Shown here: in pieces, positions 19,929-20,155 of the stretch | Position numbering within the stretch: position 1 is the stretch's first letter | Layout of the letters: each line of letters begins with the position of its first letter | Made by a program: the position numbers and the translations under genes | Notes under the pieces: model-generated | Seen by the model: the letters and a program-made list of their open reading frames with translations, nothing else | What the model was told of the DNA's origin: nothing | The model's database searches: none | NCBI RefSeq assembly: GCF_964213995.1 | Contig: NC_135821.1 | Coordinates: 4,650,001 to 4,714,000, forward strand | Source: Mustelus asterias | Lineage: Eukaryota | DNA: 64,000 nt | Direction: 5' to 3'

Positions 19929-19982
19929 CTTCACTAACACCTAGAAAGTTCTAGAACTGCCCCTTTCTAAGGCAAGCTCTTG

Positions 19983-20155
19983 TATTTATACCACTGGGAC
20001 ATCTGCATTCAAACTGGGAATGACATCACCAATGATGATTGACATCCCTGACAGCCAATCAGGACTCTGCCACCAATTCAGGCACCAATTGGAGAAGGGT
20101 GGGGTGGGGCTGGGGTGGGACCCAGAGCCAATCAGAGCTTTGGAGTCCAAAGGTT
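19983..20155 (-). promoter_or_regulatory. Ferritin copy 1 proximal promoter
   Basis: TATAAATA at 19983-19990, TGACATCA site, several inverted CCAAT boxes and a GGGGTGGG box. The block is conserved across the copies. Confidence 0.8.

What the first reader, a model, noticed from the sequence alone, without database searches (positions are those of the whole stretch)
19929..19990. No iron-responsive element: all seven ferritins have short, IRE-less predicted 5'UTRs
Seen: the TATA box lies only about 55-70 nt upstream of the ATG in every copy, implying a 5'UTR of roughly 30-45 nt. No C-bulge + 5-bp stem + CAGUGH hairpin is present. Known: canonical cytosolic vertebrate ferritin mRNAs carry a cap-proximal IRE bound by IRP1/2. 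Inference: this amplified family escapes IRP translational repression and is controlled by transcription and gene dosage, giving an iron-independent ferritin supply.
Basis: partly seen in the sequence, partly recalled or inferred. Interest (0 to 1): 0.75.

Follow-up and report, generated by a model that had tools for sequence, protein, structure and literature searches.

The report
Shark ferritin array lacking iron switch
A shark carries a row of at least seven near-identical iron-storage (ferritin) genes whose predicted messages lack the RNA hairpin that normally shuts ferritin off when iron is low, so this gene set is probably switched at the DNA level instead, although its tissue and role are untested.

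Summary
Observation confirmed; interpretation partly supported. Seven intact four-exon ferritin genes lie head-to-tail on the minus strand (CDS 97-99% identical). Each has TATAAATA 62-76 nt before the ATG and a pyrimidine-A initiator at the same offset, predicting leaders of 30-44 nt. Rfam and a SIREs-like scan find no IRE there; both find it in 3 of 3 control ferritin cDNAs with a long enough leader. The proposed acceptor is weak and not shared. One spliced contig from another organism ends after a 28-nt collinear leader (weak hint), and two other sharks show the same TATA spacing. The genes form a shark clade apart from FTH1 and from a second chondrichthyan ferritin; related salmon M chains have IREs, so the loss is probably derived. 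Escape from IRP repression follows; 'iron-independent supply' does not, because transcription may still sense iron and sharks keep FTH1. Extra: two residues of the human NCOA4-binding cleft differ (A19D, R23K) across the clade, and gene 5 has H65Y. IRE-less ferritins and tandem ferritin expansions are each known; their combination in sharks was not found in ten searches. New variant of a known kind.

The parts
19929..19958 (-). Gene 1 predicted 5' leader, 30 nt, no IRE; predicted start A at 19958
19983..19990 (-). Gene 1 TATA box TATAAATA
   Evidence: box plus 10 nt is 98% identical among copies
19991..20135 (-). Gene 1 proximal promoter: five ATTGG (inverted CCAAT) and one TGATGTCA (CRE/ATF-like; factor names recalled)
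12297..19928 (-). Ferritin gene 1, exons 19928-19827, 18598-18452, 16006-15881, 12452-12297; 176 aa; ferroxidase ligands intact
27623..32272 (-). Ferritin gene 2 (TATA 32272, ATG 32204, leader 36 nt, 173 aa)
36217..38470 (-). Ferritin gene 3 (TATA 38470, ATG 38404, leader 34 nt, 173 aa)
42173..45139 (-). Ferritin gene 4 (TATA 45139, ATG 45063, leader 44 nt, 173 aa)
48659..50917 (-). Ferritin gene 5 (TATA 50917, ATG 50849, leader 36 nt, 173 aa); ferroxidase ligand H65 replaced by Y
56701..58614 (-). Ferritin gene 6 (TATA 58614, ATG 58549, leader 33 nt, 173 aa)
61926..63829 (-). Ferritin gene 7 (TATA 63829, ATG 63764, leader 33 nt, 173 aa); the array may go on beyond the window's end
11165..11236 (-). 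Decayed fragment of a ferritin exon 4

Best explanation
These are working, intron-bearing cytosolic ferritin genes of a shark-specific tandem family, most like the M (middle) chains. SHOWN: seven intact copies, conserved CCAAT-TATA-initiator promoter, no IRE between TATA and ATG or in the spacers, ferroxidase ligands intact in 6 of 7, purifying selection. INFERRED: transcription starts 32 nt after the TATA, giving a 30-44 nt leader; with no IRE, IRP1/2 cannot block cap-dependent initiation, so protein output follows promoter activity and copy number. INFERRED: the IRE was lost once in the ancestor of the array before it spread through sharks, while FTH1 and a second ferritin type stay as separate genes. 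MOST LIKELY ROLE (inferred, about even odds): a tissue- or stress-induced iron sink and antioxidant that can be made even when cytosolic iron is low, added on top of IRP-controlled housekeeping ferritin.
For: Gene models and spacing. YA at +32 in 7 of 7. No IRE by two methods that pass controls. Identity between copies: promoter 83%, TATA 98%, leader 58% (shuffled 47%), CDS 98%; pooled pN/pS 0.33: leaders look unconstrained, as no IRE would be. Same TATA-to-ATG spacing read through in mispredicted N-termini of Cetorhinus P0054 (69 nt) and Heterodontus P0040 (76 nt), with no IRE reading, whereas 13 of 32 N-terminal extensions examined, all FTH1-type, show one. A spliced contig in coded run X2 ends after a 28-nt leader that resembles the leaders of genes 4, 5 and 2 (weak hint). 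Tree: array clade 100/98, FTH1 clade 96/93, second chondrichthyan type 100/98. Best solved relatives are M-chain ferritins. Salmon M1-M3 have IREs (PMC4117605).
Against: No start site was mapped and no RNA of this organism was seen; the X2 contig is one low-depth record from another organism, its RNA nature is a guess, and contigs cannot show starts. No IRP binding or iron response tested. The tree leaves the relation of the array to M/L chains open (polytomy), so 'derived loss' rests on outgroup literature, and the IRE status of shark FTH1 and of the second type was not readable. pN/pS rests on 27 variant codons and gene conversion could hold copies alike without much function. Gene 5 has lost a ferroxidase ligand and a decayed exon lies beside gene 1, which fits birth and death. 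No consensus ARE, MRE or HRE within 200 nt of any TATA, so the 'stress-induced' role has no direct sequence support beyond a CRE/ATF-like octamer in 5 of 7.
Confidence: 0.7

Rival explanations
1. Passive redundancy: the array is a weakly expressed birth-and-death family kept alike by gene conversion; it lacks an IRE, but that has little effect on the animal's iron handling.
For: H65Y in gene 5, decayed exon at 11165-11236, many truncated or fused shark models among the hits; synonymous divergence only 4% while leaders and introns are 58-69% alike, which fits exon-limited conversion; window is 70% self-repeat.
Against: 7 of 7 copies have open frames, GT-AG introns and a poly(A) signal; promoters are conserved; pN/pS 0.33; the family is kept in 13 named shark species of both main lineages; spliced array-type contigs occur in runs X2 and X12.
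Confidence: 0.2
2. The genes are still iron-controlled, through transcription (distal haem or oxidative-stress elements), so IRE loss only moved the control point.
For: Vertebrate ferritin has both transcriptional and translational control (PMC4117605); promoters are the conserved non-coding part. Compatible with the best explanation's anatomy.
Against: No ARE, MRE or HRE consensus within 200 nt of any TATA; distal elements not searched.
Confidence: 0.3
3. An upstream non-coding exon or alternative start supplies an IRE.
For: A TTTCTAG lies 12 nt before gene 1's ATG, and genes 3, 6, 7 have a CAG with 0.57-0.71 pyrimidines; gene 7's upstream region is cut by the window.
Against: No RF00037 match anywhere in the window, which holds the whole spacer upstream of genes 1-6; the candidate AGs are weak and at different places; TATA and initiator are conserved at fixed spacing; X2's leader is collinear.
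Confidence: 0.04
4. A non-canonical hairpin in the short leader still binds IRP or another repressor.
For: Some functional IREs are non-canonical (PMC2896125); CAGTG occurs in leaders 3, 6, 7; the 16 SELEX loops were not tested one by one.
Against: Leaders fold weakly (-0.5 to -4.4 kcal/mol) with no shared structure; 41-88% pairwise identity in two types; the CAGTG sites lack the C8 bulge and stem.
Confidence: 0.04

Closest known systems
Vertebrate M-chain ferritins (amphibian M, teleost M; PDB 1mfr, 4mjy)
   Same: Best solved relatives; same 4-exon plan as salmon ferritins (PMC4117605); ferroxidase ligands plus E57, E61, E64; often multi-copy.
   Different: Salmon M1-M3 carry an IRE (PMC4117605); these seven do not. 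Separate clade in the tree, relation unresolved. D19/K23 where M chains mostly have A/R.
Hadal snailfish fthl27 tandem expansion (PMC10746142)
   Same: Tandem amplification (14 copies against 3) of a ferritin, proposed to guard against ROS.
   Different: Recent and limited to one teleost; the paper's main text has no mention of an IRE (0 hits). The shark family spans at least 13 species.
IRE-regulated FTH1/FTL mRNAs (Rfam RF00037)
   Same: Same protein family, cytosolic, no signal or targeting peptide.
   Different: No IRE; 5 of 7 predicted leaders are no longer than the 36-nt Rfam model; not in the FTH1 clade.
IRE-less ferritins: atypical invertebrate ferritins (PMC8395497); mammalian FTMT and FTHL17 (recalled, no call)
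   Same: Lack of an IRE, control by transcription.
   Different: Atypical invertebrate ones are diverged and often lack iron ligands; FTMT and FTHL17 are intronless, one mitochondrial, one without ferroxidase centre (recalled). The shark genes keep introns and, in 6 of 7, the ferroxidase centre.

Membership tests
Eukaryotic maxi-ferritin subunit (PF00210) | Full-length ferritin homology | tested here: met
   Exon 2 matches PF00210 proteins at up to 96%; the close relative P0009 matches M and H chains in PDB at E<1e-78
Eukaryotic maxi-ferritin subunit (PF00210) | Ferroxidase ligands E27, Y34, E61, E62, H65, E107, Q141 (positions recalled) | tested here: met
   All seven in 6 of 7 genes; gene 5 has Y65
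Eukaryotic maxi-ferritin subunit (PF00210) | 24-mer assembly and iron mineralisation | not testable with these tools
   Needs protein work
IRE-regulated ferritin mRNA (RF00037) | CAGWGH loop on a 5-bp stem with C8 bulge in the 5' UTR | tested here: not met
   0 of 7; controls positive
IRE-regulated ferritin mRNA (RF00037) | Leader sequence conserved among copies | tested here: not met
   Mean identity 58%, shuffled 47%
IRE-regulated ferritin mRNA (RF00037) | IRP1/2 binding and iron-dependent translation | not testable with these tools
   Needs EMSA and reporter
FTH1 orthologues | Groups with vertebrate FTH1 | tested here: not met
   FTH1 clade (with ray and chimaera members) 96/93 excludes the array
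FTH1 orthologues | NCOA4 cleft residues A19, N22, R23 (PMC11076521) | tested here: not met
   D19, N22, K23 in 7 of 7; chondrichthyan FTH1 itself has S22 in 3 of 3
M/L-chain lineage | Groups with M chains | tested here: inconclusive
   Best PDB hits are M chains but the tree joins array, M and H clades in an open fork; no L chain was in the tree
M/L-chain lineage | Synteny with the FTL locus | tested here: inconclusive
   No genome held; the putative neighbouring exon found no relative
Processed pseudogene or FTMT-like retrogene | No introns, or N-terminal targeting peptide | tested here: not met
   Three GT-AG introns each, 173-176 aa with no extension

The most novel reading that the evidence does not exclude
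Sharks evolved an amplified ferritin class uncoupled from cellular iron at both ends: no IRE, so it is made in low iron, and an altered NCOA4 cleft (A19D, R23K), so its cages resist ferritinophagy. It would act as a stockpiled one-way iron sink for antioxidant defence or iron withholding from microbes, beside normal FTH1. K23 in 120 and D19 in 109 of 127 array-class proteins that cover the site, against 0 of 149 and 0 of 148 other ferritins (related sequences, so essentially one event). Against: K keeps the aliphatic chain that matters (R23L kept 86% binding by immunoprecipitation in PMC11076521), A19D is untested, shark FTH1 departs from the human cleft too, and mixed cages with FTH1 could still be cleared.
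Probability: 0.2. Interest if true: 0.72.

Novelty: new variant of a known kind. Interest (0 to 1): 0.45.

Why it matters
The 5' IRE is treated as a standard feature of cytosolic vertebrate ferritins (PMC4117605). A large, intact, catalytically equipped family without it, kept across sharks, would be a natural experiment in unrepressed ferritin: in people, loss of the FTL or FTH1 IRE causes disease (PMC2896125). It gives direct tests (CAGE, EMSA, NCOA4 pull-down) of how sharks handle iron and oxidative stress. The genes are already annotated as ferritin-like in public shark genomes, and IRE-less ferritins and tandem expansions are each known elsewhere, so the surprise is moderate.

Tried and rejected
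No whole genome is held, so array size, synteny and the IRE status of the other shark ferritins could not be read. Run search: no RNA holder listed; not evidence. In run X12 an FTH1-type contig has depth 16907 and the array-type contig 8.6, but contig depth cannot rank genes, so this is not used; the summed depth in DNA-like run X19 is likewise no copy number. Loose ends were too short to reach an FTH1 leader. Metagenome scan gave 2 unrelated weak loci; viral scan none. Search with the putative neighbouring exon at 7851-7973: no hit. The bare pattern C-N5-CAGWGH is enriched in the window (111 against 59.5), but many matches are repeated identical words from the repeats and almost none has a stem: rejected. 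Any-hexaloop scan: only 1-mismatch stems without IRE loops. IRE-relic idea (AGTGA shortly before the ATG in all seven, CAGTGA in genes 3, 6, 7, like the salmon M loop): no C8 or stem, not testable without the sister gene's leader; about 10-15%. Rfam mir-138, mascRNA and snoRNA hits are below gathering scores: rejected. A cruder pattern count for position 23 gave K in 132 of 139 array-class, R in 1, and K in 2 of 10 invertebrate proteins; (alignment-based) is the one used. Earlier findings: nothing on this genome or protein; one search listed 8 unrelated notes. No structure prediction or complex job was run; no NCOA4 sequence was at hand.

Full report
Setting. The window is repeat-rich vertebrate DNA (70% self-repeat). 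The finding's coordinates cover the minus-strand stretch between a TATA box (first T at 19990) and a ferritin ATG (19928). Seven ferritin genes lie head-to-tail on the minus strand, each with four exons, GT-AG introns, an open frame of 173-176 aa and a poly(A) signal; coding sequences are 97-99% identical. Closest named relatives of exon 2 are shark proteins (Mustelus asterias 96%, Scyliorhinus; best 120 of 941 hits listed), so the source is most likely a carcharhiniform shark. No genome is held.

The observation. TATAAATA lies 62-76 nt before the ATG in 7 of 7 copies, and a pyrimidine-A dinucleotide stands 32 nt after its first T in 7 of 7, although the surrounding sequence differs; no other offset from 24 to 39 exceeds 4 of 7. 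That spacing is what a TATA-initiator core promoter gives (established knowledge), and it predicts leaders of 30, 36, 34, 44, 36, 33 and 33 nt. Rfam's IRE model (36 positions) has no match in the window at gathering score, at E<=10, or in the 451 nt around the finding. A script following the SIREs rules as written in PMC2896125, for the two canonical loops, finds nothing in any leader or 3' UTR, and two poor hits elsewhere at chance level. Both methods find the IRE in the three control cDNA contigs that have long leaders (53-56 bits; L003-L005); the other five of eight controls have short or no leaders. The whole spacer upstream of genes 1-6 is in the window, so an IRE exon there is unlikely; gene 7's is cut.

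Constraint. Between copies the proximal promoter is 83% identical, the TATA region 98%, the leader 58% (shuffled 47%), the first 100 nt of intron 1 69%, the CDS 98%; pooled pN/pS is 0.33 from 11 synonymous and 16 non-synonymous codon variants. The promoter has 2-5 ATTGG words and, in 5 of 7, TGATGTCA (NF-Y and CRE/ATF labels recalled); no ARE, MRE or HRE consensus within 200 nt. Ferroxidase ligands are intact in 6 of 7; gene 5 has H65Y.

Outside support for short leaders. Four of 24 listed runs were laid on 19740-20290. In X2 one contig joins exon 1 to exon 2 and ends 28 nt before the ATG, with a leader most like those of genes 4, 5 and 2. It is one low-depth record from another organism and contigs cannot show starts, so it is a weak hint. 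X23 holds an unspliced copy with the same TATA-to-ATG layout. Mispredicted N-termini read through the same TATA box 69 nt (Cetorhinus P0054) and 76 nt (Heterodontus P0040) before the ATG with no IRE reading, while 13 of the 32 extensions examined, all FTH1-type, do show one. So the layout is shared across galeomorph sharks; it is not shown for squalomorphs.

What family. In a tree of 54 rows (50 of the 310 stored proteins, picked by hand, plus 4 of the 7 window proteins; no L chain) the window proteins fall in a shark clade (100/98), apart from FTH1 (96/93, with ray and chimaera members) and from a second chondrichthyan type (100/98); the three and the M chains meet in an open fork. In both Scyliorhinus species the second type is recorded on a contig of the same length as array copies, so probably the same chromosome. 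Best solved relatives are M chains. Five array-type clusters have 54-180 members; 74 of the 75 members listed carry shark names and one a bacterial label. Thirteen shark species of both main lineages appear and no ray or chimaera among array-type names, but only part of each list was shown. Salmon H and M chains all have IREs and M is held orthologous to L (PMC4117605), so loss in the array's ancestor is the simplest reading; it is inferred, not shown.

How it most likely works. A CCAAT-TATA-initiator promoter makes a short-leader mRNA that IRP1/2 cannot bind; output follows transcription and copy number, on top of the separate FTH1. I put this anatomy at about 0.9 and the role as an inducible iron sink and antioxidant at about 0.5.

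An added lead. PMC11076521 names A19, N22 and R23 of human FTH1 as key to NCOA4 binding. The window proteins have D19 and K23 in 7 of 7; among stored proteins that cover the sites, array-class ones have K23 in 120 of 127 and D19 in 109 of 127, all others in 0 of 149 and 0 of 148 (26 array-class and 8-9 others do not cover them; classes set by best BLAST hit). These are kin, so it is one event. R23L kept 86% binding in cells in that paper and chondrichthyan FTH1 has S22, so weakened ferritinophagy is only a possibility (0.2 together with the rest of the novel case).

What is known. Tandem ferritin expansion is described in hadal snailfish (fthl27, 14 copies; no IRE mention in the main text; PMC10746142). 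IRE-less ferritins are common in invertebrates (47% of non-insect ones have an IRE; PMC8395497), and mammalian FTMT and FTHL17 lack one (recalled). Ten searches listed no paper on a shark ferritin array or its leaders; the library lacks most subscription journals, where much fish ferritin work is printed. Seen: part 1 of 3 of PMC2896125; passages only of PMC4117605, PMC10746142, PMC8395497, PMC11076521, PMC7992352, 10.1101/2020.05.01.071498, 10.1101/364992, PMC5568229, PMC13701976, PMC7551829, PMC9138489, PMC6651445 (nothing decisive); the rest as listings. The survey of IRE evolution PMC1894933 is not held. No supplements were read; the zebrafish IRE gene lists of the preprint may show whether teleost fthl copies also lack IREs, which would lower the novelty. 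A trout H-type model (P0289) hints at the same: TATA-like reading 79 nt before the ATG and no IRE reading.

Verdict. Real feature, shark-wide rather than unique, new variant of a known kind; interest 0.45.

Noticed in passing
window 49582-49728 (-), gene 5 exon 2: Ferroxidase ligand H65 is replaced by Y, so this copy may be catalytically weak.
   Followed up: partly
window exon 1 of all seven genes, codons 15 and 19: D and K where human FTH1 has A19 and R23 of the NCOA4 cleft; shared by most array-class shark ferritins and by no other stored ferritin.
   Followed up: partly
window 11165-11236 (-): Decayed ferritin exon-4 fragment about 1 kb downstream of gene 1.
   Followed up: no
window 27411-27485 (-): tRNA-Thr(AGT), 54.6 bits, 138 nt after gene 2's stop; real tRNA gene or SINE-derived not decided.
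   Followed up: no
window 7851-7961 (-): Putative first coding exon (about 36 codons, then GT) in a unique CpG-rich stretch; a protein search found no relative.
   Followed up: partly
last 12 nt before each ATG: AGTGA is the only word shared by all seven otherwise divergent leaders; CAGTGA in genes 3, 6, 7, but with no stem or C bulge.
   Followed up: partly
leaders of genes 1, 2, 4, 5 versus 3, 6, 7: Two leader types (59-75% and 68-88% alike within, 41-56% between) despite 97-99% CDS identity, which suggests exon-limited gene conversion.
   Followed up: partly
protein P0289 (Oncorhynchus mykiss): N-terminal misprediction reads a TATA-like word 79 nt before the ATG of an H-type ferritin with no IRE reading: possible IRE-less teleost copy.
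   Followed up: no
L003-L010: Animal ferritin cDNA contigs inside bacterial genome assemblies, i.e. contamination; three carry a perfect IRE.
   Followed up: yes
No ray or chimaera name among array-type hits, though rays appear for FTH1 and the second type; the array may be limited to sharks.
   Followed up: partly
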